A DNA stretch of 64,000 bases from Candidatus Riflebacteria bacterium HGW-Riflebacteria-2 (GCA_002839435.1 PGYA01000012.1:1914-65913); one strand, 5' to 3'; positions 25,244 through 50,185 are shown, counted from the first letter of the stretch. Numbers and translations: made by a program. The notes: generated by a model not told the origin, from the sequence alone.

Positions 25244-25355
25244 AACAACCCTCCCGGTATACTGTAATTTCGCCACTAAAACTAACTCATCTTTCTCTTA
25301 TATGCAAGAGAAAGACGAGTTAAAAAGAAAAGGGGAATCCAGTTTGGGTTTTACA

Positions 25356-26473: not shown

Positions 26474-27169
26474 TCATATACCTGTCAGACCCATGTCCAT
26501 AAGGGTCTTGTAAATCTGAGCGACGGCACTGTCATTCGAATTGTCTTCTGACCTGGCAATGTTGATCTGCGTTTTCGCCTTATCGTCGTCGCCGACGCCG
26601 CCCCGCCAGAAGTAACAGAAAGCCAGCATGGCGTGCGCTTCGGCATTGCTGACCCCGATCGGATGCGTCGAAGTGAAGCGATAGGCAGTATTGCTGAGGC
26701 CGACTGCTTCGAGCAATTGAATCGCTTGCGTGATTCCGGCATTCTGGCCACGCTGAATCAGAGCGGCCGCGAGACCGATGCGAGCTTCATTGTCAGAAGC
26801 AGAAGCCTGAGTAAATGATGAATAGCCAGATTCAACCCCGGAAGATTTGGTCAATGACCAGCCAAGGCCGTTGTAAGCCTGAACTTTTTGAGTTTCGGTA
26901 ATATTGGTAATGGTCAGAACCTGATTGAACTTGTTGATTGCGCTGCTGAATGCGCCATAGCGAAAGTCTTCCCAGGCGGAAGCAAGCAGTGAATCAGGAT
27001 CGGTTTCACCGACTCCGCCGCCACCAGTGCCTCCCCCTCCGCCACCAGTACCGGGTGTCGGTATTTCTGGCGGAATAGTATAGCGGCCACTGCCGCCACC
27101 GCTGCCGCAGCCACTGGCGAGGAAGAATATCACTGCAATGGTCAGCACCACTATCGATTTTCTGTTCAT
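26474..27169 (-). CDS. Lipoprotein with Gly-rich linker (partner of giant surface protein 1)
   Basis: Lipobox LASGC, then a (G)n linker, then a roughly 170-aa domain homologous to the C-terminal domain of 37367-38119 (shared AYNG.GWS ... GVS.AEA.AMLA..FWR...GDD ... SED.S..S.VAQIY.TL...GL.GI). Confidence 0.65.
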   Translation of the reverse strand: MNRKSIVVLTIAVIFFLASGCGSGGGSGRYTIPPEIPTPGTGGGGGGTGGGGVGETDPDSLLASAWEDFRYGAFSSAINKFNQVLTITNITETQKVQAYNGLGWSLTKSSGVESGYSSFTQASASDNEARIGLAAALIQRGQNAGITQAIQLLEAVGLSNTAYRFTSTHPIGVSNAEAHAMLAFCYFWRGGVGDDDKAKTQINIARSEDNSNDSAVAQIYKTLMDMGLTGI

Positions 27170-27177
27170 CTTGCTAT

Positions 27178-27262
27178 CTCCATCTTCTCGTGCTCGTAAT
27201 CGTAATCGGTATCGTAATCGTAATCGGCATTTGGTGGGGGCGCGTCGCGACGCGCCCCTACG
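27178..27262 (-). promoter_or_regulatory. Leader region of lipoprotein 1: GC-rich palindrome plus tandem GATTAC motifs
   Basis: In the sense orientation: CGTAGGGGCGCGTCGCGACGCGCCCCCAC hairpin, then CCGATTACGATTACGATACCGATTACGATTACGAGCACGAGAAGATGGAG, then about 10 nt, then ATG. The same pair of elements recurs at 54148-54282. Confidence 0.4.
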
Positions 27263-27268
27263 GGGTTG

Positions 27269-30200
27269 TTATCGTAATACCGCGATTTTGTGCGTATATT
27301 TGGTCTTTTTACCCCAGTCGTCGGGATCTCTGACCGTGATGCGGGCGAAATACACGCCGTTGGCCACGGCTTTGCCGCCGGTGGCGCGCAGATCCCACAA
27401 TACTTCCTGAACGTGTGTATTGCCCTGTTTGCTGCTGCCACGCAGGCTGAGGTTGCGCTGGTCGGCAACCTTGTGGCCGGCGACGTCGTAGATATTGACT
27501 TCGACTTCGTTCCAGTCGATATCGTTGCGGTTGGTGCTGATGCGCATGCTGGCACGGTTGCGGGCCGGGTTCGGGTATTGCACGACATCATAGATATCCA
27601 GCGGGGGCTGGGCCACGAAGCGCAGTGCCGGGGTGACCGTCATATTGCCGGCCTTGTCGGCGATGCGCAGGCTGATTTCGTGCTCGCCGCCGATCAGGTT
27701 TTCAACCGGCACAAAGTTGGCGGTGATGCCGGCTTTGTCGATCATCAGCGGCTGCAGTTTGCCGTCGAGCATGGCCCAGGCTGAATCACGGTCGAGACCC
27801 GAAGCGAGTTCCTCGAGCTGCCAGCTGAAGGTCGGGCGGGCTTCGCGGATCGGTTCATCGCCGATCTCTGTCGTCATATTGGCGCGCGGCGCCAGAACGT
27901 CTTTCATCATAGCGAAGGTTCCGCCGGTAGTTTCTTCAAAGCTGGCAACTCCATCGCTTACTGCGAAGGCAACTGGTTTCCAGCCTGCCGCCTCGCTGCG
28001 ATACATGCCAATGCCATTGCCGATCTGGCTTTCTTCAAGTTTAAGACTCATTCTGACCGGCTTGATAATGCGCCCGGCCGGAACATTGAGACTGTAAGCG
28101 CTGCCAACTGGCGTCAGTTCAATTGAATTACCGCTGCTGCTGCCGCTCAGACTGCTGCCGCGCAAAGTCGAGCGTTGCTCGGCACTGAGGTCAGCCATAA
28201 TGCTCGGCACGATCGAGGGCAGTGTTGTGTCTTCGCCGACCCTGGCAAGTTCTTCGTGGAGAACTGTAACCACAGAATTGCTCTTAAGCGTTCCAGGTTC
28301 AAACACCACCTCGAAGTTCTCATCAACCGACTTGACCGAAGCTCTTACCGAAGCATTCACATAGGCGGTTGAGAAGCTCATGTTTGAGGTGCCGAGGTTG
28401 CTGGAAGTGTCACGAGCGCTGACTTTTATGGTTGCTACGCCAGGATAGTTAGAATCTAGATGAGCTCCACCAATGAATATCATGCTGTTCGGGCCCGGAT
28501 TCAATATCAGCGAGATGGCTGAGGCTCCGCTCTGGGTGATTGTGGCAGTTGGTGCGCCAGACAGCGCTTCATTGGACTTGACCACTACACTTATGTCGAA
28601 TTCATTAGCCGGGCTGCTGAAGGCACTGATAAGGAGTTCCGGTGGTTTTATGTCGCGACCGAAGAACGGCAGGCTGCTGTTGCTGAGGTTGCCGAAGTTA
28701 TCCTGAACTCCGGTAGCGGTAATTGTATATTCAGTGTCTTCTACGATGTCGTCGCGGCATGAAATAGTTACCGAACTCTTATCAGCCCGAACTGTAACAG
28801 AAAGAATAGTGAGTTCTGTACTGGCAGTGCCGGTCGTGAGCTTATAATTGGAAACTGTTCTAGCCGTAGTTTCTTCGATCTGTTCGCTGAACACGACGTT
28901 GAACTGTTTCTGTGAAGTCAGGCCATCATAGGTGATGGTAGTAATCTCAGGGCCTTTGGTGTCGGCCGTGAAGGTAGCTATGTTGTAGCCAGTTTCAAGT
29001 GGAACACCGTCGAGACTTGGATACCCCACGCTAACAGTTATTGTATAGGCAATTCCATCTGCAAATGGCATGGTAAATGGCAGAGTTACCTTGTTGCCAT
29101 CTATATTGTCTACGGTCATTGCGCCGACAGATATGCCCACCGGCAGGTTTTCGGCAGAAGAGATCGTGAAAGGCGTGCCTGATGCGATGCCTGTGAATAC
29201 ATCATGAGAGAAAGTCAGCAGGGCGGTTCTGTCATTAACCTGTGTGACTCCGGTAACTCTGAAGCGTGAAGTGGTAACTTTGATGTCCACAGTGATACCT
29301 GAGGGGTTGCCGGCCAGGTCAGTTACCGTAACCTGATAGACGCCATCCTGAACAAGCTGCTGGCTAGTGTCTTTCCCGTCCCATAGGGCTGTCAGGTCTG
29401 TTGCACCAGGGCCTCCCTCGAGAAGGATTTCTTTGATCAGCGTCGAGCCGACGGTAATTTTTGCCATTGCAGTGCCCGAAGCGATATCACTCGGATCTGT
29501 CGTGGTAGCTACAATTCTGAGCTTATTAGTGGCGCCCCATGGGCTGAAGCTAGAGACCTCAGTACCGGTATCGTGCCGGTATAGCCTGATGGCTGAGATG
29601 GGAGGCGAAACTGTATCTATTATCAGAGTGGCAGTCGCCTTGCTGTTGGCACCGCTGCCGGTGCCGACGTTGCCGGCGAGATCGACGAGCGAAACCATGT
29701 AATTCCCGTCTTCGAGGCGGCCTGGTGGTGTATTGGTATGTTTACCATCAAAGCTGATCGTATATCCGGTTGTGGTCTGGCCCATCTGATATGTCTCTGT
29801 GGCAACTCCGCTGGTAAGTCGCATTTTTACTGTGTCGCCGCCAGCCGGGCCGGATACGTCTACTTTTACGAATGAGCTGACAATTGGACTGAAGTAAGCG
29901 ACATTGTTTACGGTCTTGACATTGGCGAACTGCCATGAACTAACTTTAGGCTCTTTGCCATCGTAAGTTATTGTGCCGCGCGTGCTGCCTTCGTTGTTGG
30001 CATCGTCGTATACCCGCAGTTCGAAGCTGATCGGGCCAAGCACCCCATAGAAAAGACCAGTAGCAGTAGATTTGCCATCCCAGGCAGCAGTCCCGCTAAG
30101 CCTGTCGGGAGCAAGAGTAAGAGGAATGCTGGCGATTTCTGTGCCATTGGTCGGCTGAATTCTCAGCCAGAGGTCAGTTGCAACCGGTGCCTGTTGAAAG

Positions 30201-33200
30201 GTTACCGTTATGGTCGCAACATAAGGCTCGACATAAGGGCTGAAAGGCTGGTTTACCAGAACAGTATTGTCTTTGGCGGTTGTCTGCTGGTAGGTCGTTA
30301 CTTCGTAACCACTTATAATCGGGCCTTTCGATCTGATCGTGACTGGAATAGAGGCGATTCGGCTGTCGGGATCGTTTGCTCCACGGTTGCCTGCCTCATC
30401 GAAACCGCCAGATACGAAGTAGTAGTATGGCCCACCCTGCAGGGTGTTGGCGTCGAAGTTGGCGGAGTTGGTGAATAGTGCCGTTCTGCCGTCTTGCCAG
30501 TTGCGGAATACAAAGGACATTACGGCTGTGCCGTCGAGCCCAAGCCGCATCTGCGGTTCCAGGGTGCCACTATCACCGCGGTTCATGTCTTCATCAAAGA
30601 TGACTTTGAAATAGCTGCCGGCAGGCATTATGCCGATTGTGTAGGAGCCAAGAGTTGTGTTCGGCTGAATTACATCGATTGCCCTCGGCATTTTGTTATC
30701 GAACACCATCTGCGCTCGCGTGTCATCAAATCCATATTGTGAAACACCGCTGGTTGTTTTCTTGCTCAGGTCAAATGCTTCACTTGCCTGGCCGAAAGCC
30801 GGTGCTCCGACATTGAATATGTCAGTAAAATTGCTTACCTGAACGTATACATCGATTTTCTGGAGATCGCCAGCTTCAGGCAGAGTAGTGTTGGTGTATC
30901 GCGCTACGGTTCGTGTAACACCACCCTGATTATGATCGAGCCAGCTGACGAATTTTCCGGTGTCGATGCGGACATTGTCGGACGATCTGTACAGTTCAAG
31001 AATGGGAACGATATTGCGGGCGATGGGTATGCTTACATCAGCCGACAATGTTGCTGTTTCGAAGGCTACTTCATAGAAGAAGTTGTCAGCAGGATAACCT
31101 TTGAACAGCTTGGTGCTGCTGGCTGTAGTGACCGGGCTGATAGCAACCGTATGAATTCTCGCCGGAGCATAACCTGTTGGCAAATTCTTCTGCAGCAACG
31201 ATGCCTGACCGCTTGTGCCCGGGAAGGCTTCGCTTAAATTGCCCCACAGATCTCTGAATGCGCTGTTCGAGCAGGCCAGGAAAAAGTCGCTGGTTCCCCA
31301 GCTGAGAATAGACTTCAATGCTTCATCGCTAAGCGGAATTCTGATAGTAGTCGAAGCGTAATCATTAAGCTCTGTATAGCTGTTGGCTCCAGTCCACCGA
31401 ACCATAGGATTGGCCTGACTGAGGCTGCCGAGAGATATTGAGCGGCTGTTGGCGGTATCCGCCTTCTCATAGATGTAAACCCTGGAAAGATCTGCGGGCT
31501 GGGTTTTGGTCAAGGACAGGGTACTTTCGTTATGAGCGTCGTTGAATAGTCTGGCTCTTCTGTTCTGTATGTTGATTGTAAGCATCGGAATCCCGCCACT
31601 GAGGTCGAGCAGGCTGCCGGCAGCTACCTGGAAAGGAGTGCTCAGCGGCGTGAGACTGGCAACTACTGCGTTGGTTGGCGTTATCGGCATGACACTATTG
31701 CCCTCTGTGTCGCGTATGAGAGGCGTCAATCCGTTATACGGTGGTGGCTCAAATTCAGTGCCGGTGATCTGCAGGTGAAACTGAGTGCCAAGTCGACCAT
31801 ACTTAAGTGCTATCCAGTCCTGCGCTTCCTGTGAAAGTTCAACTTTTAAAGATCGCAAAGTATTGAGAGTGCTGTACGGGTCAAATGTGTCTGAGGCTAA
31901 AGTGTTGAAGCGATATCTATTGACCCAGGTCTCATTATTTGACGCCCGGTTGCCCCATATTGCGAGATTTTTCAGAGTTGTGTCATCCATTGTCGTGGCA
32001 TCCATATCTTTGTCGAATTCGATATAGAGCTGTTTGCTTATTTCATCGCTGAGATTGGCGACATAGCGCCCGCCAATGAGCTTCGGTCGAGTATAGAAGT
32101 CGTTCGGTATCAGAAGCTGCTGAAGGGTGATGTTGCGCGAAATCGGCTTCAGCCAGTTGCCGGACTCATCTTTTACGACATGAAAGATAGGGTCGAAGCC
32201 GGTTTGTGTGTCATTTGTCGAAAGTGAAATGTAAAGGGTTCTGCGACCCCAGTCGGCGATTATCGTTCTGCTGGGAGAAGCCAGCGTAATCTGCATTGTG
32301 TCGGTGATGCTCTCTGTTATCAGAAGGTCATTATTGGCAAGACTTAGGGCAAAGGCTGTTTTATTGCCTACCTCTATGTTGGTGTGGGCGTTTCTGTATC
32401 CTATCCTGATCTGTTCGATGTCAAAAGTCGCCGGATTTACCGGTTCAGAGAACACCAGGCTCAGGTTCATTCCGTCATAGGTGGCATACGACAGTTCAGG
32501 GCGTTTGCTGTCTACTGCAAGCTGAGTGTATTCGTCGTCTACATAAGCCTTGTTGCCATAACGGTCGACGACATAGATTCTGAAAGTATGGGTGGCGAGG
32601 TCATAATTGCCATTCTCAAGCCGGTAATGCGCATATTTGTTCGGAAAGGTTATGCCCCCATCTGTAGAAAAGCGTGTTGCATTAACTGCATTGGGCTTTA
32701 ATTGATAAGTAGTGGTGGCGCCAATGGGAGAAAGGTCAACATAGGCCTGTCCGTTTGGAAGAGCTTCAGTCAGCTCGACCCAGGCAGATATGCTGTCAGA
32801 TGCGACACCATTGCCGACATTCGCTACCCAGTTCTCCGTATTCTGTGGATTGACAACTTCTACCCGCTGAACAATTGTATTAATATTGATAAGCGGGGGT
32901 TGATTATCGAAAGTCAATGCCGGGCTTGGGACAAGCTTGCCGGAAGTGGTCTGGTTATCGGCATCGTCGGAGACAAAGATTTCATATCTCAGAATGTCGC
33001 CATTGACTATCAGCCATTCACCTTCACCAACTTCAATCGGAACAGCAGTGGTTCCGGTAGCGACCTCAAAGGTGGCCTGCCAGACGTTGGTTCCTGTTAC
33101 CTGAGTAAGGGGTGCTCTGAACACTTCCTGCGAGCCCAGCGAAGTATAAAGAACGACCGTAGCTGAGCCCGGGTCGGTAAAACGTTCAATTTCGGCTTCG

Positions 33201-37180: not shown

Positions 37181-37288
37181 AGCAATGGTTCCTCCGGGTG
37201 GAACTGATAGTTTTCGACTAGTCAGATAGTTCATCGGCAATTCCTGACGAAATCCGGAGTAAAAAAAATGATATGGCAATATCTGGCT

Positions 37289-37338
37289 AAAAGAGTGGCC
37301 GGCAGATCGATTTTTCGACCTGCCGGCCTATCCCTTTT
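37289..37338. terminator. Intrinsic terminator after lipoprotein gene 2, separating the two giant-gene cassettes
   Basis: Stem GGCCGGCAG / CTGCCGGCC with T-runs on both sides. Confidence 0.5.
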
Positions 37339-37366
37339 TCCCAGTCAATGTGGGAACATCAATTCA

Positions 37367-38119: not shown

Positions 38120-38122
38120 TTT

Positions 38123-41100: not shown

Positions 41101-44100
41101 TCCATGAGGCGACGATCGGGCCGCGTGAGCGAACGACCATGGTGCCGGCGTTGCTGGTGTCAAGTTTGTTGCCGGTGAGATCCCAGGCTACAACGCGGCA
41201 GTCGTAATCACCCTGTGGCAGGGCGTTGCTGATTGTGGCAGTATTTACGAACTGTGCTGTGCCAGATGCTGTCCAGCCTTTGAAAGTACAGGCGATCTGG
41301 GCTGTTGTTGTAGCAATAACCAGAGTCGGTGTAGCCGAAGACAGTTCATTCATGTGCTCGTTGAACTGCACTGTGAAGGTGGCGCCGCCGGCTGTAGCAC
41401 TGACGATCGGCAGGGCGGTCGAAGTCGTGGCGACCAGAACGATCGGAGCTGTGCGGTCGACGACAAACATCGTTATCGAAGCGGTGCCGGTGGCAAAGTT
41501 GCCGGCCATGTCGGCGGCGGTGATCAGGTAGTGCCCTTCTGCGATCGTGGCAGCGCTGGCGACTGAAATCGAATAGGTGCTGATGCCGGTGGTAAGATTG
41601 CTATACATGTTCCAGGTGTAAGGCAATGCCGTTGTCGTGGCTATTACCAGAACGAGAGAATCGGTTGCCGTTGAGGCACTGGTCTCAAATCTGACATTGA
41701 GTGCGCCGTGCAACTGCTCGTTGTAATAGAGCGGGTTGTTTATGGCATTGGAGACGGTACTGATGGCGGCAGTGGCAACTACCGGCTGGATGCCATCATA
41801 GACTATTGGCAGGGTGTAAGTGGCGCTGATGTTGCCAATATTGTCGATAAGCCTGAAGCTGTAAGATTCGGTGGCAGCTCCTGGATTGCCGAGAGCGCTT
41901 GAGTTAAGCGTGAACGTGCTGATGCCACCAACTGCACCGGGCACCACAGCTTCTGATGCGAGATTGTTTGAGCTGTCGTAGATTCTTATCAGGTGCGGTT
42001 CTTGATATGGATGTCCGCCGGCAGTGCGATAATTGAGTGACAAAGAGGCAATGTCGGGCCCGGCGGCAAAGGCTTCGAATGACAACGGACGATTGATCAG
42101 CGCTTGAGTTCCGTAAAGGTCGGTCTGGTTGCTGACCACCTGGAATGCTGTCAGGTCTGGTTCCTCAGTGAACAATACAATCGTGAACGAGCCCAGGTCG
42201 GGAACAATGTTGGGGTTGCCGGCATAGTCTCTGGCGCCGCTTATCTGATAACTGTAGGTTCCTGGTGTGAATGACTTGTCGATGGCGACAGTGTTGGTGA
42301 ATTCGCAGGTGCTTGAGCTTATCCATCTGGTGGCGCGCATGGTTATCGTGCCGCTGTCGGAAGCCAGCGTCAGGGTTGGCGAAGCAGCACCAGTATTCAT
42401 ACCTGAATCAAAGGTGAGTTGGAATATTCCTGTATTGGTGGCCACGACGCCGGTGCTCGTCGAAGGCAGACCGGCGATGATTGCCACAGCCGAAGCCAGT
42501 TTCGGTGCGTCGGTATCGATTATTAAAAGCGAGGTCGATGCAGTTCCGTCGGCTATGTTGCCGGCGGTATCGACGCCGGTGATCAGATAGGCGCCGTCCG
42601 GCAGTGTGGCTACATTACCGGTGCTGACATCGACGAGAGAAGATAACTGCATGCTATGTGACAAAGCGCCGGTTGTCATATCAGCAACATAGGTCGCGTT
42701 AGTATTTATATTTAACGCGAGAAGTCTCAATACATCTGGGTTGATTGTGGTGATGCCGATGCTTGTGTCTGCGACATTGGGCGAATGATACAGGGCTATA
42801 GCGGGAGCATATTCAGTATTGGTAGCAATGCCCGGTCCTGATGTCATGGCGATGGCTGTATTGATCGTTGGGGTGGCGGTGTCGTATCTGAACCCGAAAG
42901 AGGGAGAATAATCGCCGCCGGAGTCGCGAACGCGCAGAGTGTAGCTGGCGTCCTGTGGGTGCCCGCCTGCCCATGACCAGGATGCGTTTGCCGGTTCGAA
43001 AGGTATGATAGATGGAGTGGGCAGAGGCAGGCCGGTATAACTGCCGACATCTGTTGCTCCTGAAGAGACTATCAGATCGTAAGTGTCGAATGTAGTGCCG
43101 ATAAAGTCGATGCGGATGGTGGCTGAGCCTGGAGCTGTATAGAACGGATTATAGCCGAGATTAGCCTGCGGCGTGGTGCCATAGATATGGCTCTGATTAG
43201 TATAATTAGTTATGTTCACATAAGGTCCGGCAGTATAGACTTCGATGGTCTTAGTCTGGTCGCTGGCAGGGGTTCTTGTGTTGAATGCAAGGTCTCTTCC
43301 ACCGGTCATGGTGAATCGGTATTGGCCGGTTTCAAGAGCAGAAGTTATGTCGCCAATATTTTCGTAAATAGCAGTTGAAGCTACGGCAGGATTTACCCAG
43401 CCTACGAAACGCCAGTTGATGGTCGAAGCATTTCTAGTGAGAACAAGGTTTGGTTCCTGAGCCGGGTCTGCATCCATTGGCTCAGAGAAGGTTACAACCA
43501 GCCTCGTTTCAGAGGCCAAACATTTGCCAATGTAGTAAGGCCCGGGCTGTCCGGCCGAGTATTCTGGTACAATAGATAGGAGAACTGGTGCAGAGGCATC
43601 TGCGTAAACTTTGCGGGTTGCCGAACCGGTGCCGATATTGCCGGCAAGATCGACAACTGTAAAGGTATAGGGCCCGTCAGCATAGGTGCTGCCAGTGGCA
43701 AGAAAGTAGTTGCCAGGGGTGCCGCTATTGTTTAACAGCTGAGCCGAAGTTGCCGTGCCATTGTAAACGGCGAGACGGAGCGTATCGGTTGTGACTGCAG
43801 CAAAGTTGAGAATCAGGTCGCCATCAAGTGGATTGAAGTAAGTATACTCGGCAGTGGTTGAGCCGACTCCCAGTCCGCCGATAGTAAAGCTGGTCATTGC
43901 AGGAGGAAGGCCATCGTATACTATGTTGAGAACATTATCAGTGCGGTTGTAAAGAGAGTCTCTGATTCTCACGGCATAGCTTTTCGGGCCGATGTTTGCG
44001 GCGGCTATGGCAGAAATTGTTGCTGTGGCAAGGCTTCCGCTGATAGATAATGGTACGCTTCCTTGCAGCACGCCACTGATCGGGTCGTAGATCTCCAGGT

Positions 44101-47100
44101 AGTGAGGGAAGTTCTGCGTTGGCGCCGTTGTGTAGGTCACACTGAATATTGCGTTGCCTCCGATATACTGACTCCAGGGCTGGTCGATCAGTATGTCAGT
44201 TGAAATGGTGGGCTGAACTGTGCGCAAGACAACATCGCCGGCGCTGACTTCGGGGGCGTATGTGCGAACTTCAACCGGGAAAGCGGTTGCGCCGGTCGTT
44301 GTCATGACGTTGCCGGCGACGTCGGTGCCGCCGGAAACCTGATAATACCAGGTGCCGTTTGGCAGGGTAGAGGTAAAGGCAGAGTCATTAGTGAACTCGG
44401 CAGTCGCTGAAGCAGACCAGGAAGAGAACGTAAAAGTCATGGTCTCGGTCGAAGTTGCAAGCGTGAGAGTTGGAATGACCGCCTGGTTCATTGCTTCGTC
44501 GAAGTTCACGCGGAATATTGAACCGGCCGGGATTTTGCCGATGTAATCGTTCGGTATGATCGAGTTGACCATTACCACAGGCTTTTGCGTGTCAAGAATA
44601 ACTTCGGCTGAGGCAGTGTCGGTAAACCCTTCGACTGCTCCGTCGTTTTTGCTGTTCAGATCGTAAGCATAGGATGCAGTCATATCTTTGGTGTTGCCAA
44701 AAATGTCAGTTACGCCATAAATGTTTACTACCGCCGGAACACTCTGCAGGTTAGATGGCAGAGCAGCCGTGTTCTGGTAGCGGAAGACGCCACGTAGTCT
44801 GCCATCGACAGTACGTTCTGTGTAGTTGATGAATGTTCCTGAGGCAACCCAGGTGTTGCCGGCATCCTGTAAGAAAATGCCTGCTCTGGGTGTGGTCTGC
44901 CATTGCAACGGCAGCGGGATGCCATCCATATCAGGCGGGAACACTTCGACTTCAAATATAAGTTCACCTGCGAGCTTGGCACTGACTGGCGGCTTGTCGC
45001 TCATCGAAACGGCCGCCAGAGTTGCGCTTGTGGCTGGGGTTCCTGTGGCTACCTGCATTGCGCCCGGGTAGCTTGAAGGCAGATAGGCAAGGTTGGAGTT
45101 GCCCCACAGGTTGGTGAAGGCACCGGCCTGGATCGTCATTTCCCAGATCGGACTGGGATTGTTCTTATAGAGTGCAAGGATGTTTACCAGATCGTCGTCG
45201 TTAAGTTTCAGGGTTACGGTTGTGCTTGCAAACAGCGGATTAGTCGTAGATGCGAGAGGCTCCAGCTGTAGAACCTGGGTGCTGCCACTGTTGCTTTCGT
45301 GAAGAATTATCTTGCCATGAAAGCCGGTAACGCGGTTGTTGAAAGTAGGCACTGGCTCAATAAGATAGGGCGTCGCGTTGTTGTTGTATGGACTGTTCGA
45401 AAGCAGCAGCAGGTCGCTTGCAGAAAGAACCAGACTGCGTTCTCCTATACTCAATTTAGGATCATCAGGCGGCCCAAGGAATGCAAAGTTAGATACGGGG
45501 CGGTTATCCAAGCCTGCGAGGGGAGAACTCGGGTCAATATGGGTGACCGGTTTGCCGAGAAAGTCAATGACAAAAGGCTTAAGTGTGTTTCTGCAGGCAA
45601 TATAGAGTTTCTGGCTGGTATTGTTGGTAAGCTTTTTGGCTACCCAGCGGCGACCTGTTTCGCACAGAGAGATACGCAGATGGTTTGGACTTTGCCACAC
45701 GAATGTATCAGAAGCCTGTGCCGTACTCGAGGCCTGAAATACATAACCTAGATTGTAATCTACATTTGTTTCAAACGTTCCACTGGTGTCGGAAGCCAGC
45801 AGCAGCACTGCCGCCGTTGCTGCGAGGCTATCCAGATCCATGTTCTTGCTGAACAGCAGGTCTATGTTAATGGAATTAGGCCAGTTCTGTTCTACCGTAA
45901 AATGTGTTATGCGCGCAGGTTCGCGCCATGCCGAATCGGTGATGGTAATCGGGAAATATTCTACGGGTCGCAATTCGTTACCCCACATGTCAGTTACGGC
46001 TGAAGTAGCGGTATTGGTGACCTTGAGGTAAATCGGTGTAGATGCCCATCCAGCCATTGTTCTGAGATGGCTTATGTCAAGTTCAAGCTGAAAGCTTGAC
46101 CAGTCAAGAATTTCGTTCGGAGCAGTAGCATTGAAGGTAAGGCTTGCCGGCGCGCCGAGAGTAGAACTGCCAACAATCTGCCAGTTTTCGACAACAAAAG
46201 TGTCGTTGTCGAAATTCTCGGAAAGTGCTACTGAAAGAATGTTGCCATCAAATTCAGCGCTGACAAGTGTTGGCGCTATGTTGTCAATGAACAGGCGCTC
46301 GGAGGTGTAGGTTGCATTGCCGGCTTGATCAATGGCATACAGCCAGACTCTTCTTGAAACACCGTCTTCGATTGGGGGCAGTCGGTTTACGGTATAACCC
46401 GAAATGGTAACCGCGCTGCTGCTGTTCTCTGTTTTCAGATCGACTGTGCCGGTGCCGAATTCTCTGAAGTCGAGCCAGGCTTTGTGAATGATGAGATTGT
46501 CCGCAAAGGTTATTGATGCGATAAGGCCATCGCCGGTCGTGCTGCTGGCCAGGTTGTAGATCAGGATATCCGTGCTGGTAGTCGCCAGATAATAGTTGGG
46601 AAAGAGGTTTATGCCGGTGGTGAGAGCTGTCGGCATGATGTTTCGCACGACAAAATCACCTGTTGTGTAAGTTGTCGTGCTTACATTGTTGACATTATCG
46701 ACTGCTCTTACTCTGTAAAGAAGCTCTTCAGTTATTACAGGCCAGGCAGTCGCTGAATGAGTGGCAATTGTAATTGTGCCTTCATGCCGATTGTTGGCAG
46801 AATTGAAGGTTAGTGTCGTTGTGGCATAATCGACTTCTACACCGGCGGTGAGTGACGCAAGATTTCCGTAAAGTACTGCATCCTGATAATAGGTTGCGCT
46901 TGCCCAGACCATCACGACATCGCCCGGGCCAGCGAAACCGGGGTTAACCAGACCGTTGTCCTGCCAGAGAACGAGACCTGCAAGGTTATCGTCCAATATC
47001 ACCGGCCGACAGTCGATTTCAGTAAAAAGCTGCGAATTCGATGAGGCAGAATTCCCGGCATCATCCAAGATGGATGCAGTAAATCGTACGTTTGTGTATT

Positions 47101-50100
47101 CTGTTGGACTGTCAAGAGTAATTACTTCTGAAGCTATCCACAGTGATCCGGCTCCGGTAACTTCGGTATTGATCATTGGATAACTGGCATTATTTATACC
47201 GATCATGCGAAGGTCGATTGTCACGCTGTCACTGGAGATAGTCGTATCGCTGTCCAGGCGGAGGGTGAAGGTCAATTCCTCGCCGCTGCGAATGATTCCC
47301 GGCTGGCTGTTCCCGGAAACCGTGAGAGCTGTTGCCACCTGTGGTGCCGAACTGTCGATAAAGATTGTGGGATCGGTGCTGGCAGTTGCATAGTTCTGAT
47401 CGTTGTCACGAGCAGTTATAAGCCATGATGTGTCGGTTCCATTGACGTTTCCGGCTGCAATTGTCGCTGTGTATTCATAACGATTAAATCCACCATCGAC
47501 TGCGGTAAAAGTCATCGCCTGAGCGCTGCTCAGGCCGAGATTGCTCAGGTTTATTGTCGGTACGACATTCTCGTTGTTCCTGACTCGTGCGGTGAATAGA
47601 ATGCTGTCGCCAACTTTGGCGGTTGATCCGCCGCCGACAACAGTTGCAGTGGGAGTTGCATTGGCATTGAAAACCGGTGGCCAGTTATCGACTTTTCGCA
47701 TTCCTGATTGTGTGAAGGTTACATTTCCTGAAACGTCTCTTACTGTTGCTGCAAAACGATGGCTGCTGGAGTCATATTCATAAGGTATGGTGTTGTCCAG
47801 GGAGTATGTGAAAATTCTGTTACCGGCAGTATAAGTCATGGTAGCCACATTCGAGAGTCCAAACTTGCTGAGATCCAATGTGGCGCTGGTGATAGCAACA
47901 TCAGCTTCGTCTGTTAACGGATCGAGAGTGACAGTAATATCAATGATTTTGTTCAAATTGATGATGCTTATGTCAGTGTCATCTGGCGGGTCATTGCGAT
48001 AAGATACATTCAGATCGAAGTCAGTGACTTTGACGGGCTGGTTGTCAATGTTTACGAATATAGTTTCTGTGTCAGTGTTGCCAGCGTCATCGGTAGCTGT
48101 TACCAGGAATGGAACATTGTTCTGGCGGTCGAGGATTCCTTCACTGAGACCTCCAGATACCGTATACACATACCAGCCTTGCGCGCTTGGATAGCCGCCG
48201 ATATTGGAAGGCATCATATTCTCGTTGTTGCCAAGGCCCAGACTAGTCAGATCGATGGTAACCGTGACCGGATTGCTTGCCACCTGGGCTAGAAGGTTAA
48301 GTGAGTTTCCTATGATTAGGAACGTGGCAGGATTACCATTGGTTACTATTGCGGTGCTTGCTATGTTGGGCGGTTCGTTGTCAATTGTCAGGGCATTTGT
48401 ATAGTAATCATCGTAAAGATGTCCAATAAGGTCAGCACCATGTATCGAATTTATAGTGTCGTTGAACGAGACTCTAAAAGATACAAAGGTATCAACTCTT
48501 GGCGGACTGGCAGGGGACAGTCTTGCGTCAAGAAGGGTTTGCGGCGGGGTGCGGTAGACTCCGCCTCCTACAGACAGCAGCGTTGTAAACGTTGACAAAC
48601 CTACGGAAGACAGGTCAACTGTAATGGAACCGTTTTCGATGCCCGTTGCGTTACATTGTACTGTGAATTCATCGTCAACTTTTATTATAGAGCTGTTTTG
48701 CGGATTTGCGCTGGTCAACTGTATCCCTGTTACGACAGGAGGGTTACTGTCAACACCAATCGCAGGAGTCGTTGTTCGGGCAACTATGTTGCCTGCAGTG
48801 TCCCTGGCATAAATTGTGAACGAGTATTTGGCGCCATCCTCAAGTGACCCCTGAGCAATGTTGAAATCTGCCTGATAGCTGGCTATGTCGGGGACGATCT
48901 GGTTTAGCCTGAACTCAGAGGCCCCTCCTATGGGTGTTAAATCTACAAAAACTACAGTTCCGTTGTCGGGGGGGGAATCCAGGACAAGCTCAGACCAGAA
49001 TCTGATGAAACCGGTTGTTGTGGCTACATCGGTTATCGGAGATATTACGCCTTCACTATATACTGTACCAGAGGCGTTGATTATACTTGGCCTCAGCAGG
49101 TCTACCGTAATTTCTATTGTTCTGGTTACAACATTACCACTGTTGTCTCTGACATTAAAAGTTATAGGAACAACACCGGAAAGGTTAGTTGCCCTGAGTT
49201 CGACGATCAAAGACCACTCTGCCGGGAGACCAGGCCCGTTAGACTGAGACAACGGCATAGGATAAGGATTGTCAATAGCAGGGTTTGCTGCAAGATTGGT
49301 TAAAAGCGGAGCAGTAACTGATGCCGTGTCAAAATCATAGTTGCTAACACTGACTTTCAGTTGCAGGCGATCGCCGGGTCTGGCAATAGCATTACCTGAA
49401 AGAATAGTAACGCTTGCATCTGCTATCACAGGGTAAGCGTTATCCAGTTGAATCTGATTAGTAGAATAGACGACAGCAGGATGAACCGCTATTGGATCAT
49501 CAAGCGTGATGTTCAACGTTACAGGCCCATTGGTATCAGTGTTAGCAGGAAGAGTATAGTTAAGGGTGAAAGTGCCTCCACCATCTGTCATCACCACTGC
49601 AGCAGGCAGAGCAGCGCTGATAGGGGTAAGATCGACAGTTGCTGTCGTTCCAGGCTGGTAACATGCGTCAGTAATAGACACTGTCAAAAGATTTCCTACG
49701 ATGCTTGCGGCGGCCGGGACAGGATTCGCTCTAACTTGAATGAGGTCGAAAGGTCTAGCTCCCAGCGTTACCTGTGTTGAAACAGCATCTAAGATATCAA
49801 TAACTCCATTTACATTGCTGTCCCACCGCGCAGATACTGTAAAGCTGGTTAAAGCTGTTGTTGTGTTCGGTGTAATACTGGGTGCCGGGCGAAAATTGAG
49901 ATTTTGAGCTACAGTACTGTATGTTGTGCCATTTACAATCGCCAATGGTTCATTGTTGGAGAGTCCAATTGCTGAGAGATCAACAGTAGGGAAACTTCCA
50001 AGAGTATTTGTTGCTATACAACTTATGACGATACTGTCACCGACGTTAGCAACTCCATTGCCATCGTTGTCATTGAGAGTGAGCTGTGCCGAATTGATCT

Positions 50101-50185
50101 GTATTTGGGCAAATGCAGCTTCTGGTATAAATATTGTCAGCAATATCAACATTAAAGCGAAGAACAGCAGACTCGATCGCTTCAT
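38123..50185 (-). CDS. Giant secreted surface or adhesin-like protein (4020 aa) with T9SS-type C-terminal sorting domain
   Basis: ATG with GAGGAG RBS and signal peptide MKRSSLLFFALMLILLTIFIPEAAFA. N-terminal domain paralogous to giant 1. Long arrays of Ig-like repeats. C-terminal QYPNPA...VTIYDVAGHKVG...NGVYFARI...KLAVLR. Confidence 0.8.
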   Translation of the reverse strand: MKRSSLLFFALMLILLTIFIPEAAFAQIQINSAQLTLNDNDGNGVANVGDSIVISCIATNTLGSFPTVDLSAIGLSNNEPLAIVNGTTYSTVAQNLNFRPAPSITPNTTTALTSFTVSARWDSNVNGVIDILDAVSTQVTLGARPFDLIQVRANPVPAAASIVGNLLTVSITDACYQPGTTATVDLTPISAALPAAVVMTDGGGTFTLNYTLPANTDTNGPVTLNITLDDPIAVHPAVVYSTNQIQLDNAYPVIADASVTILSGNAIARPGDRLQLKVSVSNYDFDTASVTAPLLTNLAANPAIDNPYPMPLSQSNGPGLPAEWSLIVELRATNLSGVVPITFNVRDNSGNVVTRTIEITVDLLRPSIINASGTVYSEGVISPITDVATTTGFIRFWSELVLDSPPDNGTVVFVDLTPIGGASEFRLNQIVPDIASYQADFNIAQGSLEDGAKYSFTIYARDTAGNIVARTTTPAIGVDSNPPVVTGIQLTSANPQNSSIIKVDDEFTVQCNATGIENGSITVDLSSVGLSTFTTLLSVGGGVYRTPPQTLLDARLSPASPPRVDTFVSFRVSFNDTINSIHGADLIGHLYDDYYTNALTIDNEPPNIASTAIVTNGNPATFLIIGNSLNLLAQVASNPVTVTIDLTSLGLGNNENMMPSNIGGYPSAQGWYVYTVSGGLSEGILDRQNNVPFLVTATDDAGNTDTETIFVNIDNQPVKVTDFDLNVSYRNDPPDDTDISIINLNKIIDITVTLDPLTDEADVAITSATLDLSKFGLSNVATMTYTAGNRIFTYSLDNTIPYEYDSSSHRFAATVRDVSGNVTFTQSGMRKVDNWPPVFNANATPTATVVGGGSTAKVGDSILFTARVRNNENVVPTINLSNLGLSSAQAMTFTAVDGGFNRYEYTATIAAGNVNGTDTSWLITARDNDQNYATASTDPTIFIDSSAPQVATALTVSGNSQPGIIRSGEELTFTLRLDSDTTISSDSVTIDLRMIGINNASYPMINTEVTGAGSLWIASEVITLDSPTEYTNVRFTASILDDAGNSASSNSQLFTEIDCRPVILDDNLAGLVLWQDNGLVNPGFAGPGDVVMVWASATYYQDAVLYGNLASLTAGVEVDYATTTLTFNSANNRHEGTITIATHSATAWPVITEELLYRVRAVDNVNNVSTTTYTTGDFVVRNIMPTALTTGINLFPNYYLATTSTDILIYNLASSTTGDGLIASITFADNLIIHKAWLDFREFGTGTVDLKTENSSSAVTISGYTVNRLPPIEDGVSRRVWLYAIDQAGNATYTSERLFIDNIAPTLVSAEFDGNILSVALSENFDNDTFVVENWQIVGSSTLGAPASLTFNATAPNEILDWSSFQLELDISHLRTMAGWASTPIYLKVTNTATSAVTDMWGNELRPVEYFPITITDSAWREPARITHFTVEQNWPNSINIDLLFSKNMDLDSLAATAAVLLLASDTSGTFETNVDYNLGYVFQASSTAQASDTFVWQSPNHLRISLCETGRRWVAKKLTNNTSQKLYIACRNTLKPFVIDFLGKPVTHIDPSSPLAGLDNRPVSNFAFLGPPDDPKLSIGERSLVLSASDLLLLSNSPYNNNATPYLIEPVPTFNNRVTGFHGKIILHESNSGSTQVLQLEPLASTTNPLFASTTVTLKLNDDDLVNILALYKNNPSPIWEMTIQAGAFTNLWGNSNLAYLPSSYPGAMQVATGTPATSATLAAVSMSDKPPVSAKLAGELIFEVEVFPPDMDGIPLPLQWQTTPRAGIFLQDAGNTWVASGTFINYTERTVDGRLRGVFRYQNTAALPSNLQSVPAVVNIYGVTDIFGNTKDMTASYAYDLNSKNDGAVEGFTDTASAEVILDTQKPVVMVNSIIPNDYIGKIPAGSIFRVNFDEAMNQAVIPTLTLATSTETMTFTFSSWSASATAEFTNDSAFTSTLPNGTWYYQVSGGTDVAGNVMTTTGATAFPVEVRTYAPEVSAGDVVLRTVQPTISTDILIDQPWSQYIGGNAIFSVTYTTAPTQNFPHYLEIYDPISGVLQGSVPLSISGSLATATISAIAAANIGPKSYAVRIRDSLYNRTDNVLNIVYDGLPPAMTSFTIGGLGVGSTTAEYTYFNPLDGDLILNFAAVTTDTLRLAVYNGTATSAQLLNNSGTPGNYFLATGSTYADGPYTFTVVDLAGNIGTGSATRKVYADASAPVLLSIVPEYSAGQPGPYYIGKCLASETRLVVTFSEPMDADPAQEPNLVLTRNASTINWRFVGWVNPAVASTAIYENIGDITSALETGQYRFTMTGGRDLAFNTRTPASDQTKTIEVYTAGPYVNITNYTNQSHIYGTTPQANLGYNPFYTAPGSATIRIDFIGTTFDTYDLIVSSGATDVGSYTGLPLPTPSIIPFEPANASWSWAGGHPQDASYTLRVRDSGGDYSPSFGFRYDTATPTINTAIAMTSGPGIATNTEYAPAIALYHSPNVADTSIGITTINPDVLRLLALNINTNATYVADMTTGALSHSMQLSSLVDVSTGNVATLPDGAYLITGVDTAGNIADGTASTSLLIIDTDAPKLASAVAIIAGLPSTSTGVVATNTGIFQLTFDSGMNTGAASPTLTLASDSGTITMRATRWISSSTCEFTNTVAIDKSFTPGTYSYQISGARDYAGNPNIVPDLGSFTIVLFTEEPDLTAFQVVSNQTDLYGTQALINRPLSFEAFAAGPDIASLSLNYRTAGGHPYQEPHLIRIYDSSNNLASEAVVPGAVGGISTFTLNSSALGNPGAATESYSFRLIDNIGNISATYTLPIVYDGIQPVVATAAISTVSNAINNPLYYNEQLHGALNVRFETSASTATDSLVLVIATTTALPYTWNMYSNLTTGISTYSISVASAATIAEGHYLITAADMAGNFATGTASITMFVVDRTAPIVLVATTSTALPIVSATAGGATFTVQFNEHMNELSSATPTLVIATTTAQIACTFKGWTASGTAQFVNTATISNALPQGDYDCRVVAWDLTGNKLDTSNAGTMVVRSRGPIVASWTTTSYQSTTASATLASGLEMLTDQPFNLNYTPNMATITLQLSAPPDAEPIHLHFMLANTTIASYPLVLNGLIASFAWTSTNGPATATTYIIRVADDKGDLSLESHFWTMDNDDPLVRDIAIVGAETATDSVYFSPDRQRYFTTTFSLSNLETMAPRLRIRGTNSTDTYLLTSAGNDKWSCNFEGQYSRTPFDRMPDGAYKLDMVDAAGNVAGLASDGLTIVLDFDLIIDSLAPDVATYVMTQNGLTVTSFAPSAGDLNIIASSPTTPVDETNIWYIEVRDQLGTLVKRLPVDAGTASATWNGTDAVGNLVIDGYYTLTATDLAGNPAGISTTVFARTTPFRVMGMEQTASASARIWFNHDIDAGTLGGTPITATPTLAISGLARTQERALDFNVAAFTHAQSYDFTVAASIKSIFGAAVLSTASQATLVADARGPVIADVSFTGLAGQQEFRVEFDEACESVSAGTKTNYVVTAATGTYTVSKVVVAGDKRSVVVTVSPALTENADYTITASNIKDDLGNISSTSKAFKGQDRTPPTLIVSAFSNPANENDIIVVVTSNEPLKAAPDLSVSQSGAPSVVTATMQKGADNMSYMLGVSLNPSYNGNGTLSAEAQDIAENTGYGTNSFTVAYISSARASILKSADNRLALDFSEQSLNSDATVKILKHELEKSEATGGAIRTALQNQFRAAIGSLRGNLASETVLPNHSELVPVSDAYEIGILKAKVKDGFGVSLTSGEATSTTGIALFNQVGDSWNFVTASRDKEGAFAARTGSPQIFAVMRDIAAPRLNLAADMEMSEPFRTARPEFRGRVEEAGSGIDPRTVIARIDGGPGQPVQVDGNGNFLFKPIADLVAGDHDLVIKAADRTGNTGLMAATRFQIVLPLSISQIMQYPNPANRRMFIRISANRDDLTSDLVTVTIYDVAGHKVGSLDYIKAVKENVVAQRYLYDIPWDLRNSEGKQVANGVYFARIVIRDPDDPSIKTKRNFKLAVLR

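What the first reader, a model, noticed from the sequence alone, without database searches (positions are those of the whole stretch)
26474..50185. Two tandem cassettes: giant T9SS-type surface protein followed by a paralogous Gly/Thr-linker lipoprotein
The cassettes span about 22 kb. Each encodes an enormous protein (3303 aa and 4020 aa) with a signal peptide, paralogous N-terminal domains, long arrays of Ig-like repeats, a shared pre-CTD module, and a C-terminal domain matching the T9SS sorting / FlgD-Ig-like consensus (QYPNPA, IYDVAGHKV, NGVYFARI, KxAVLR). Each is immediately followed by a small lipoprotein of a conserved but unrecognised family. In cassette 2 the two genes are separated by only 3 nt, implying co-translation and a dedicated partner. 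By analogy with SprB-SprF this may be a co-secreted anchoring or shuttle factor, but the lipoprotein is not PorP/SprF-like. The organism uses Shine-Dalgarno sites, so this is a T9SS cargo system outside classical Bacteroidetes.
Basis: partly seen in the sequence, partly recalled or inferred. Interest (0 to 1): 0.8.

Follow-up and report, generated by a model that had tools for sequence, protein, structure and literature searches.

The report
Giant surface proteins with partner lipoproteins

Summary
On the minus strand lie giant2 (4020 aa), lipo2 (250 aa, 3-nt gap), a terminator-like hairpin, giant1 (3303 aa) and lipo1 (231 aa). The organism is Candidatus Riflebacteria, placed outside the FCB group.

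Both giants end in a genuine T9SS type A C-terminal domain (CTD). Its closest solved relatives are the CTDs of PorU and PorZ.

The lipoproteins have a lipobox, a disordered Gly/Thr tether and a 9-helix TPR domain. No named family matches them.

Across 65 family genes in public genomes, 64 sit directly 3' of a large protein with this CTD. Submitter labels include Riflebacteria, Cloacimonadota, UBP17, Poribacteria, KSB1 and Glassbacteria. Cognate pairs stay together, so the "dedicated partner" idea is strongly supported.

The function is inferred. I favour a tethered periplasmic chaperone or targeting adaptor; a surface anchor is the main rival.

The PorV-like gene is a looser associate. Its orthologues elsewhere sit beside type IV pilus genes without the giants.

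Presence of T9SS core genes in Riflebacteria could not be tested.

Verdict: a new variant of a known kind.

The parts
38123..50185 (-). giant2: a 4020-aa secreted protein of Ig-like repeats with a signal peptide (cleavage site ..AFA|Q) and a C-terminal type A CTD
   Evidence: ORF and translation. Pfam Big_13, Big_5, FlgD_ig and Por_Secre_tail hits. Paralogous to giant1. SD GAGGAG lies 5 nt before the ATG.
38126..38431 (-). CTD of giant2 (about aa 3919-4020): T9SS type A sorting domain
   Evidence: TIGR04183 and PF18962 match aa 3919-3999. The CTD profile places this domain at the C-terminus. The NCBIfam PorU model (positions 957-1088) matches at 9e-16.
37367..38119 (-). lipo2: a 250-aa lipoprotein with lipobox VIGC, a ~60-aa Gly/Thr tether and a TPR domain; cognate partner of giant2
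   Evidence: Translation. Starts 3 nt after the giant2 stop, with its SD GAGG inside the last giant2 codons. Orthologues P0070, P0076, P0078 and P0079 form their own subfamily. Loci L037, L039 and L061 keep the 3-nt gap.
37297..37328 (-). Terminator-like hairpin (14 pairs, 10 G-C, followed by a short T run, CTCTTTT) between lipo2 and giant1
   Evidence: Consensus scan only. The total number of such sites in the region does not exceed shuffles, so this is suggestive rather than proven.
27269..37180 (-). giant1: a 3303-aa secreted protein of Ig-like repeats with a signal peptide and a C-terminal type A CTD (the gene call on the matching ENA contig starts 18 codons further upstream, 3321 aa)
   Evidence: SD GGAGGA lies 9 nt before the ATG at 37180. 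Full-length orthologues with the same downstream genes occur in about 30 Riflebacteria genomes.
27272..27577 (-). CTD of giant1 (about aa 3202-3303): T9SS type A sorting domain
   Evidence: The isolated CTD scores 25.8 bits on TIGR04183 (cut-off 23) and 1.5e-14 on the PorU C-terminus. The CTD profile matches the solved PorU CTD at 1.2e-15 and the PorZ CTD at 7.5e-7.
26474..27169 (-). lipo1: a 231-aa lipoprotein with lipobox ASGC, a Gly-rich tether carrying the conserved motif GRYT[IL]PxE[IV]P, and a 9-helix TPR domain; cognate partner of giant1
25356..26339 (-). PorV/PorQ-family outer-membrane beta-barrel (327 aa), possibly co-transcribed with giant1-lipo1; its functional link to the cassette is uncertain
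   Evidence: NF033709 scores 123 bits against a cut-off of 90. The family profile matches solved PorV 6h3i_F at 8.3e-29. The AF2 barrel has pLDDT 91. The best structural matches are PorV in T9SS translocon complexes, TM 0.70. It follows lipo1 in 27 of 31 class i loci. Its orthologues elsewhere lack the cassette.
25282..25323 (-). Terminator-like hairpin after the PorV-like gene
   Evidence: 19 pairs of which 5 are G-C, followed by TTTTAG. Consensus match only.

Best explanation
The locus holds two copies of a conserved two-gene module. The first gene encodes a very large Sec-exported surface protein built of Ig-like repeats. It ends in a T9SS type A C-terminal sorting domain of the PorU/PorZ-like kind. 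The second gene is translationally coupled to the first. It encodes a small lipoprotein: a lipid-anchored Cys, a 35-60-residue flexible Gly/Thr tether with a class-specific short motif, and a 4-5-repeat TPR domain.

Proposed mechanism (inferred). The lipoprotein is anchored in the inner leaflet of the outer membrane. Through its TPR groove it binds its own giant partner in the periplasm. It holds the partner in a secretion-competent state and brings its CTD to the outer-membrane export and sorting machinery that recognises such CTDs. In this sense it is a cargo-dedicated chaperone or pilotin-like adaptor. In the window, the PorV-family barrel encoded just downstream is a candidate CTD receptor or anchor.

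Shown: gene structure, CTD identity, lipoprotein architecture, conserved cognate adjacency, and PorV homology.

Inferred: direct binding, periplasmic location, the chaperone role, and any involvement of the PorV-like barrel or of a full T9SS.
For: 1. Pairing is nearly universal. 64 of 65 family genes with upstream DNA, in genomes labelled Riflebacteria, Cloacimonadota, UBP17, Poribacteria and KSB1, lie directly 3' of a protein with a C-terminal CTD. Two further look-ups (Glassbacteria and an unnamed bacterium) show the same arrangement. Flanking genes differ between the classes.

2. Coupling is tight. The gap is 3 nt in every class ii locus, 12 nt or an overlap in most class iv loci, and 12-35 nt in class iii. 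The lipo2 SD lies inside the last giant2 codons.

3. Cognate specificity holds. lipo2-type genes follow CTD2-type giants and lipo1-type genes follow CTD1-type giants in other genomes. A third Riflebacterial class pairs a ~1800-aa CTD protein with a ~213-aa lipoprotein.

4. The one exception fits dependence on the partner. In L058 the upstream protein has no CTD and the lipoprotein gene is split into two ORFs.

5. The lipoprotein architecture is clear. The Cys is invariant, and lipoboxes are present in nearly all full-length members of every class. The TPR domain is modelled confidently. Structural neighbours are generic TPR scaffolds, among them the type IV pilus lipoproteins PilF and PilW. 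Their role as secretin pilotins is from my own knowledge.

6. CTD identity is secure. All 24 sampled CTDs match TIGR04183, PorU and PorZ C-termini. Partner proteins in other classes exceed the curated cut-offs: L070 scores 37 bits on TIGR04183 and L041 scores 31.2 bits on PF18962.

7. There is a T9SS precedent for a TPR lipoprotein at the translocon, SprE/PorW (PMC10994853).
Against: - No direct evidence of binding or of subcellular location exists.
- TPR folds are generic, so the fold says nothing specific about function.
- A surface-exposed anchoring role fits the same genomic data.
- T9SS core genes were not found in the window and could not be sought in the genome. The downstream export step is therefore assumed.
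- The PorV-like gene is absent from class ii-v loci and from 4 of 31 class i loci.
- PorV-like orthologues occur next to pilus genes without any giant upstream.
- Conserved motifs in the tether are not explained by a simple chaperone model.
Confidence: 0.45

Rival explanations
1. Surface anchor model. The lipoprotein is exported to the outer leaflet and serves as the cell-surface attachment point for its cognate giant. It would be the type A counterpart of PorP/SprF for type B CTD proteins. The giants would form an adhesin coat or S-layer-like sheath held by lipoprotein plus PorV-like barrel.
For: - The same conserved 1:1 cognate adjacency applies.
- The long flexible tether carries class-specific conserved motifs.
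- The CTDs resemble those of PorU and PorZ most closely. From my own knowledge, those CTDs are retained and docked on PorV/PorQ barrels rather than cleaved.
- PorP-like proteins anchor type B CTD cargo (PMC9143113, abstract).
Against: - No surface-export signal is known or recognisable in these lipoproteins.
- TPR lipoproteins with characterised roles (BamD, PilF/PilW, SprE/PorW; background knowledge) face the periplasm.
- Nothing here shows that the CTD is retained.
Confidence: 0.25
2. Autonomous module. The giant, the TPR lipoprotein and the PorV-family barrel together form a self-contained outer-membrane export and anchoring device that works without SprA/PorKLMN. The logic would resemble Slam/T11SS, which combines a TPR domain with a 14-stranded barrel.
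For: - Riflebacteria are placed with the diderm Terrabacteria, outside the FCB group to which T9SS genes are said to be confined (PMC11285876).
- No T9SS core gene occurs in 64 kb plus 10 kb of this contig.
- giant1, lipo1 and the PorV-like gene may form one transcription unit.
Against: - The pair occurs without an adjacent PorV-like gene in classes ii-v.
- One class iv locus has a SprA-like ORF nearby.
- PorV-like orthologues exist without giants.
- Absence of core genes from a 74-kb sample of the genome carries little weight.
Confidence: 0.1
3. Coincidental neighbour. The lipoprotein is a general envelope factor (BamD-, CpoB- or PilW-like) that merely happens to lie next to the giant genes.
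- There is a weak BamD hit (E 0.036).
- Type IV pilus genes lie nearby in the window.
Against: - Adjacency to a CTD protein is kept in 64 of 65 loci while the surroundings change.
- There are two to four paralogues per genome, each next to its own CTD protein.
- No hit to BamD/YfiO, PilW (TIGR02521), CpoB, PorW or PorE models at E<=0.01.
- The BamD 'hit' is carried largely by the artificial Gly-Ser linker of a fusion construct.
Confidence: 0.05

Closest known systems
T9SS type A CTD cargo proteins (TIGR04183 / PF18962), in particular the CTDs of PorU and PorZ
   Same: Both have a Sec signal peptide and a C-terminal ~100-aa domain with the PNP, IYD-x-x-G and GVYF motifs and a basic/hydrophobic end. 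The profile matches solved PorU (1.2e-15) and PorZ (7.5e-7) CTDs.
   Different: The host is Riflebacteria, not an FCB phylum. The proteins are 3-4 thousand residues of Ig-like repeats. Whole-protein scans fall just below the curated cut-offs. It is unknown whether the CTD is cleaved, retained or recognised by a T9SS.
SprB-SprF and other type B CTD / PorP-like pairs of Bacteroidota
   Same: A very large surface adhesin is encoded immediately upstream of a small cargo-specific accessory outer-membrane protein needed for its export or anchoring (PMC9143113).
   Different: The CTD here is type A, not type B. The accessory is a TPR lipoprotein, not a PorP/SprF beta-barrel; there is no PF11751 hit.
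SprE/PorW, the TPR lipoprotein of the extended T9SS translocon
   Same: Both are lipoproteins with TPR repeats that would act on the periplasmic side of type IX export (PMC10994853).
   Different: In the solved structure SprE shows 13 TPR units plus a 160-residue insertion, and it is a general component of the machine. The proteins here have 4-5 repeats and ~230 aa, occur as several paralogues per genome each tied to one cargo gene, and give no sequence-family match.
PilF/PilW pilotins and BamD (small outer-membrane TPR lipoproteins)
   Different: There is no HMM-level homology: TIGR02521 and YfiO give no hit. The genomic partner is a CTD protein, not a secretin or BamA.
PorV / PorQ (T9SS shuttle and attachment-complex barrels)
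   Same: The downstream 327-aa protein passes the PorV/PorQ family model. Its best structural match is PorV in the translocon complex.
   Different: It fails the PorV, PorQ and PorV2 equivalog cut-offs. NCBI names a Riflebacterial relative 'UPF0164 family protein'. Orthologues in other lineages are paired with a CarboxypepD_reg lipoprotein and type IV pilus genes, not with T9SS genes.

Membership tests
T9SS type A sorting domain (TIGR04183 / PF18962) | The domain lies at the extreme C-terminus of a protein that has an N-terminal Sec signal peptide | tested here: met
   The CTD profile envelope ends at the last residue in both giants. Signal peptides can be read in the translations.
T9SS type A sorting domain (TIGR04183 / PF18962) | Score at or above the curated HMM cut-off | tested here: inconclusive
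   Whole proteins fall below the cut-offs: PF18962 scores 21.2 and 22.8 against 27, and TIGR04183 scores 18.9 against 23. The isolated CTD1 scores 25.8 against 23, and all 24 sampled CTDs match at E<=0.01. Partners in related loci pass: L070 at 37 bits and L041 at 31.2 bits on PF18962.
T9SS type A sorting domain (TIGR04183 / PF18962) | Homology to experimentally solved T9SS CTDs | tested here: met
   The profile matches PorU 6za2 at 1.2e-15, PorZ 5m11 at 7.5e-7, and F. johnsoniae substrate CTDs 8glj_D and 8glk_D at 0.007.
T9SS type A sorting domain (TIGR04183 / PF18962) | Export depends on a T9SS (SprA/Sov, PorK/L/M/N) in the same organism | not testable with these tools
   No core gene is present in the window or in the 10 kb beyond its far end. 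No paper in the library links Riflebacteria with T9SS.
PorV/PorQ family (NF033709) | Score above the family cut-off and a PorV-like barrel fold | tested here: met
   The score is 123.1 bits against a cut-off of 90. The profile matches PorV 6h3i_F at 8.3e-29, while the FadL family reaches only 0.03 or weaker. Foldseek's top hits are PorV 8gl6_F and 6h3i_F at TM 0.70 and 0.69.
PorV, PorQ or PorV2 proper (equivalogs NF033710, NF033711, NF052325) | Score above the equivalog cut-off | tested here: not met
   The scores are 43.8 against 250, 63 against 220, and 92.6 against 325.
PorP/SprF family (cargo-linked accessory of type B CTD proteins) | Outer-membrane beta-barrel matching PF11751 | tested here: not met
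   The lipoproteins are all-helical TPR proteins with no PorP_SprF hit.
SprE/PorW | Long TPR lipoprotein (13 TPR units resolved in the structure) that is a single-copy general T9SS component | tested here: not met
   The proteins are 231 and 250 aa with 9 helices. They occur in multiple cargo-linked copies per genome. No T9SS component model matches them. The SprE features are taken from PMC10994853.
PilF/PilW pilotin (TIGR02521) and BamD (YfiO) | HMM match to the family model | tested here: not met
   Neither model hits at E<=0.01. There is only generic fold similarity and a linker-driven BamD hit at E 0.036.
Bacterial lipoprotein (signal peptidase II substrate) | Signal peptide followed by a lipobox with an invariant Cys | tested here: met
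   The lipoboxes are LASG-C (lipo1) and LVIG-C (lipo2). The Cys is invariant in 34 homologues. Lipoboxes are present in nearly all full-length members of every class. No dedicated predictor was available, and lipidation has not been tested.

The most novel reading that the evidence does not exclude
In Riflebacteria, a diderm phylum placed outside the FCB group, giant proteins with type A CTDs are exported and anchored by a self-contained module. The module consists of a cargo-dedicated TPR lipoprotein plus a PorV-family barrel and works without the SprA/PorKLMN machine. It would be a minimal or ancestral form of type IX sorting, or a new outer-membrane export route that has co-opted the CTD.
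Probability: 0.1. Interest if true: 0.85.

Novelty: new variant of a known kind. Interest (0 to 1): 0.6.

Why it matters
T9SS cargo-specific accessories are so far known only for type B CTDs (the PorP/SprF barrels). Here a different kind of accessory, a small tethered TPR lipoprotein, is tied gene-for-gene to a class of very large type A CTD surface proteins. The tie holds in genomes labelled as several candidate phyla, which points to an unrecognised step in handling giant cargo.

The finding also places type IX-style sorting signals and a PorV homologue in Riflebacteria. Reviews state that T9SS genes are absent outside the FCB group, so the evolutionary reach of the system, or of parts of it, becomes directly testable.

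giant1 is conserved across most sampled Riflebacteria and is probably a major envelope component of an uncultured phylum noted for its many unknown genes (PMC10849945).

Tried and rejected
1. Known TPR lipoprotein families (BamD/YfiO, PilW, CpoB, PorW, PorE, NlpI) were rejected. No Pfam or NCBIfam hit appears at E<=0.01. The PDB profile search gave only a linker-driven BamD hit at E 0.036.

2. A search for a Riflebacterial PorU using the CTD profile failed. Only proteins of 201 aa or shorter were listed among the best 120, so long proteins could not be seen.

3. A SprA search also failed. The only SprA-like sequence obtained is a partial ORF in L043. It has no relative in the 1.1 Mb of fetched loci.

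4. Extending the window contig by 10 kb found no T9SS gene.

5. Scanning the genes that replace the PorV-like gene in L028, L033 and L034 found no T9SS component. The hits were a CsaB-like protein, an S41 C-terminal processing protease and PilB.

6. A fused CTD-plus-lipoprotein AF2 run was prepared but abandoned.

7. I first treated the PorV-like gene as the dedicated anchor of the giants. I then down-weighted this after finding orthologues next to aroE-pilB-pilT-pilC with a CarboxypepD_reg lipoprotein and no giant.

8. Literature searches found no paper linking Riflebacteria with T9SS and no described cargo-linked TPR lipoprotein.


Full report
**Observation**

The region 25.3-50.2 kb of the window is read on the minus strand. 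In order it contains:
- giant2, 38123-50185, 4020 aa
- lipo2, 37367-38119, 250 aa
- giant1, 27269-37180 from an ATG, 3303 aa
- lipo1, 26474-27169, 231 aa

The giant1 ORF stays open to a TTG at 37279. The gene call on the matching ENA contig gives 3321 aa, a start 18 codons further upstream. The ATG at 37180 has the SD GGAGGA 9 nt upstream.

giant2 and lipo2 are separated by exactly 3 nt. The GAGG that precedes lipo2 lies inside the last giant2 codons, CTG AGG TAA. SD-like motifs precede all five genes.

Terminator-like hairpins follow lipo2 (37328-37297; 14 pairs, 10 G-C) and the 327-aa gene (25323-25282). This suggests two transcription units: giant2-lipo2 and giant1-lipo1-barrel. These are consensus matches only, and the total number of such sites in the region does not exceed shuffles.

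The two giants are paralogues. They share 34% identity over the C-terminal ~1150 aa (E 1e-151) and about 25% over a further ~2200 aa. Both carry D-x-x-G-N motifs spaced 106-121 aa apart and Pfam Big_13, Big_3_2 and Big_5 hits, which indicates arrays of Ig-like modules. The two lipoproteins are 43% identical (E 7e-39).

**Organism**

Homologues of lipo1 carry names such as Candidatus Riflebacteria and Ca. Ozemobacter sibiricus. The best genome match is Ca. Rifleibacterium amylolyticum CH46, at 96% identity. The same contig occurs in ENA and JGI metagenome assemblies.

A phylogenomic study places Riflebacteria among the diderm Terrabacteria (10.1101/2021.05.31.446380). A 2024 T9SS paper states that T9SS genes are absent outside the FCB phyla (PMC11285876). 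No paper in the library mentions Riflebacteria together with T9SS.

**The C-terminal domains**

In whole-protein scans the CTDs fall just under the curated cut-offs. PF18962 scores 21-23 bits against 27, and TIGR04183 scores 18.9 against 23. The last ~140 aa nevertheless match the C-terminus of the PorU model at 9e-16 and 5e-18.

Scanned alone, CTD1 scores 25.8 bits on TIGR04183, above the cut-off of 23. All 24 CTDs sampled from related loci match TIGR04183 and the C-termini of PorU and PorZ.

A profile of these CTDs matches solved structures:

| Solved structure | E-value |
|---|---|
| PorU 6za2, residues 1054-1154 | 1.2e-15 |
| PorZ 5m11 | 7.5e-7 |
| F. johnsoniae substrate CTDs (8glj_D, 8glk_D) | 0.007 |
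| Gingipain CTDs | 0.09-0.7 |

These are therefore genuine type A sorting domains, closest to the PorU/PorZ kind. From my own knowledge, not tested here, the PorU and PorZ CTDs are retained and docked on PorV and PorQ rather than cleaved.

**The lipoproteins**

Neither Pfam nor NCBIfam assigns a family. The only hit is a weak TPR_19 match.

Thirty-four homologues share an invariant Cys in a lipobox. After it comes a Gly-rich tether with a nearly invariant G-R-x-x-x-P-x-E motif, then a domain with invariant W66, G101, G103 and W104.

lipo1-type and lipo2-type sequences form two conserved subfamilies within the phylum.

**Is the lipoprotein tied to CTD proteins?**

A scan of one genome per species returned 69 loci. 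I called ORFs in all of them and searched with the window's proteins and with a CTD profile.

Of 65 family genes with upstream DNA available, 64 lie directly 3' of a protein whose C-terminus is this CTD. They fall into classes:

| Class | Arrangement | Example loci |
|---|---|---|
| i | giant1 (~3300 aa) - lipo1 | L004-L035 |
| ii | giant2 - lipo2 - giant1 | L036, L037, L039, L053, L055, L061 |
| iii | Riflebacterial ~1800-aa CTD protein + ~213-aa lipoprotein | L048, L052, L054, L059-L070 |
| iv | 1650-1730-aa CTD proteins + 211-aa lipoproteins, in MAGs labelled Cloacimonadota, UBP17 and others | L041-L057 |
| other | Poribacteria (L071), KSB1 (L072) | L071, L072 |

Two further look-ups show the same order: an unnamed bacterium (L075/L076) and Glassbacteria (L077/L078). 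The phylum names are the submitters' labels, and some may be wrong.

Partner proteins in other classes pass the curated CTD cut-offs. L070 scores 37 bits on TIGR04183, and L041 scores 31.2 bits on PF18962.

Gaps between the two genes are short:
- class ii: always 3 nt
- class iv: mostly 12 nt or an overlap
- class iii: 12-35 nt
- class i: mostly 8-163 nt

Cognate pairing is kept. For example, in L037 the CTD2 query scores 2e-69 against 3e-38 for CTD1, and lipo2 scores 3e-114 against 2e-45 for lipo1.

The single exception is L058, from a rumen MAG. The upstream 1687-aa protein has no CTD, and the lipo2-type gene is broken into two ORFs.

A more distant ~200-aa TPR protein (P0387) is not next to a CTD protein. 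It marks the edge of the family.

The adjacency is far from random, so the 'dedicated partner' reading is strongly supported.

**The downstream barrel**

The 327-aa protein passes the PorV/PorQ family model (123 bits against a cut-off of 90). It fails the PorV, PorQ and PorV2 equivalog cut-offs.

A profile of its relatives matches solved PorV at 8.3e-29, whereas the FadL family reaches only 0.03 or weaker. The AF2 model is a barrel with pLDDT 91. Its best structural matches are PorV inside T9SS translocon complexes (TM 0.70 and 0.69), ahead of TodX and FadL.

The family is very large, with 14,236 clusters at E<=1e-3. NCBI names a Riflebacterial relative 'UPF0164 family protein'.

The barrel follows lipo1 in 27 of 31 class i loci that have downstream DNA. 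It is absent from all other classes.

Orthologues in three other lineages sit in the arrangement [CarboxypepD_reg lipoprotein] - [PorV-like] - (aroE) - pilB - pilT - pilC - pilin. There is no giant or TPR lipoprotein upstream. One of the three is the same MAG that holds class iv locus L044.

The barrel is thus a true PorV homologue and may be co-transcribed with cassette 1 here. Its evolutionary tie, however, is to the pilus-gene neighbourhood at least as much as to the giants.

**T9SS core genes**

The 64-kb window contains none. It encodes:
- RlmN, PASTA/kinase proteins and a glycan-synthesis cluster
- a prepilin peptidase and three PilB/PilT-type ATPases
- HisRS and a VWA protein

The 10 kb beyond the window's far end contains none either. 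One class iv locus has a partial SprA-like ORF 2.6 kb upstream of the pair (TIGR04189, 39 bits, E 1.5e-10).

I could not scan a Riflebacteria genome. Whether a complete T9SS is present remains open.

**Mechanism**

Shown:
- a conserved, translationally coupled, cognate two-gene module of a large type A CTD surface protein plus a tethered TPR lipoprotein, duplicated here
- a PorV homologue immediately downstream

Inferred: the lipoprotein binds its own giant. I favour a periplasmic role (confidence 0.45). The TPR domain would be lipid-anchored to the outer membrane and reach into the periplasm on a long flexible tether. It would hold the huge unfolded or partly folded cargo and present its CTD to the sorting machinery, like a pilotin or dedicated chaperone. 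SprE/PorW shows that a TPR lipoprotein can work at the periplasmic face of the translocon (PMC10994853).

The main rival (0.25) is a surface anchor, analogous to PorP/SprF for type B CTD cargo (PMC9143113). The PorU/PorZ-like character of the CTD would fit a retained, docked CTD.

An autonomous export module (0.10) and a coincidental neighbour (0.05) are less likely, for the reasons given under the rivals.

**Novelty**

No family model, name or paper describes this lipoprotein or the pair. It is a new variant of a known theme, cargo-linked T9SS accessories. It occurs in an unexpected phylum and is widespread among candidate phyla.

Noticed in passing
window 57121-60624 (-): A 1167-aa PilB/MshE-type ATPase (MshEN + T2SSE domains in aa 63-556). 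It has a ~600-aa C-terminal extension with no confident Pfam match; a faint DUF4046 hit is on record for the same protein in L079.
   Followed up: no
window 7929-19674: Three paralogous PTPS_related polytopic membrane proteins lie at 7929-9656 (-), 9807-11594 (+) and 11588-13420 (+). Beside them are a GT2 glycosyltransferase, a B12-binding radical SAM enzyme, an asparagine synthase homologue and a TPR protein. This is probably a surface-glycan or envelope biosynthesis cluster.
   Followed up: no
window 26474-27169 and 37367-38119; loci L041-L070: The 'disordered' lipoprotein tether carries conserved, class-specific short motifs. Class i has CGSGGGSGRYT[IL]PxE[IV]P, class ii has GRQTLPGENPxGP, class iii has GTPIVR, and class iv has CGAAPGGDSLDGANGDxGLPLSG. 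This suggests a second, unexplained binding or sorting function.
   Followed up: partly
giant1 aa ~2594-2655 (window ~29216-29401) and giant2 aa 3296-3363 (window ~40097-40300): Each giant contains an internal FlgD_ig/CTD-like domain about 650 residues before the true C-terminal CTD. It is conserved in orthologues.
   Followed up: partly
L058 9717-10498: In a rumen Riflebacteria MAG (RUG334) the lipo2-type gene is split into two ORFs, and the upstream 1687-aa protein lacks a CTD. This is the only locus where the pairing is broken. It may be a decaying orphan or an assembly frameshift.
   Followed up: partly
L080 8601-17194; L082 8669-17152; L083 8510-10873: PorV-like orthologues are preceded by a 430-480-aa CarboxypepD_reg protein (a lipobox is visible in the L080 copy). 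In L080 and L082 they are followed by pilB-pilT-pilC-pilin. This is a conserved pairing of a PorV-family barrel with type IV pilus genes, with no T9SS context.
   Followed up: partly
L043 1-2157 (-): A partial ORF with a local match to the SprA/Sov translocon model (TIGR04189, 39 bits, E 1.5e-10) lies 2.6 kb upstream of a class iv CTD-protein/lipoprotein pair.
   Followed up: partly
L034 10658-12091 (+): In one Riflebacteria MAG, lipo1 is followed directly by an S41 C-terminal processing peptidase (TIGR00225, 376 bits) instead of the PorV-like barrel. A tail-specific protease next to a CTD protein may be worth a look.
   Followed up: no
L070 10491-12380; L052 10640-12487; L060 10584-12467: Class iii pairs are followed on the same strand by a conserved ~620-aa protein. 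In the L070 copy it has CarboxypepD_reg, Pur_ac_phosph_N-like and fn3 domains. Class v pairs (L072, L075) are followed by a TPR + PD40 beta-propeller protein, which is TolB/PorE-like.
   Followed up: partly
window 2337-3587 (+) and 1153-2310 (+): A three-PASTA-domain protein is encoded separately from, and just upstream of, a protein whose kinase match covers only about the N-terminal half of the Pkinase profile (positions 15-140 of 263).
   Followed up: no
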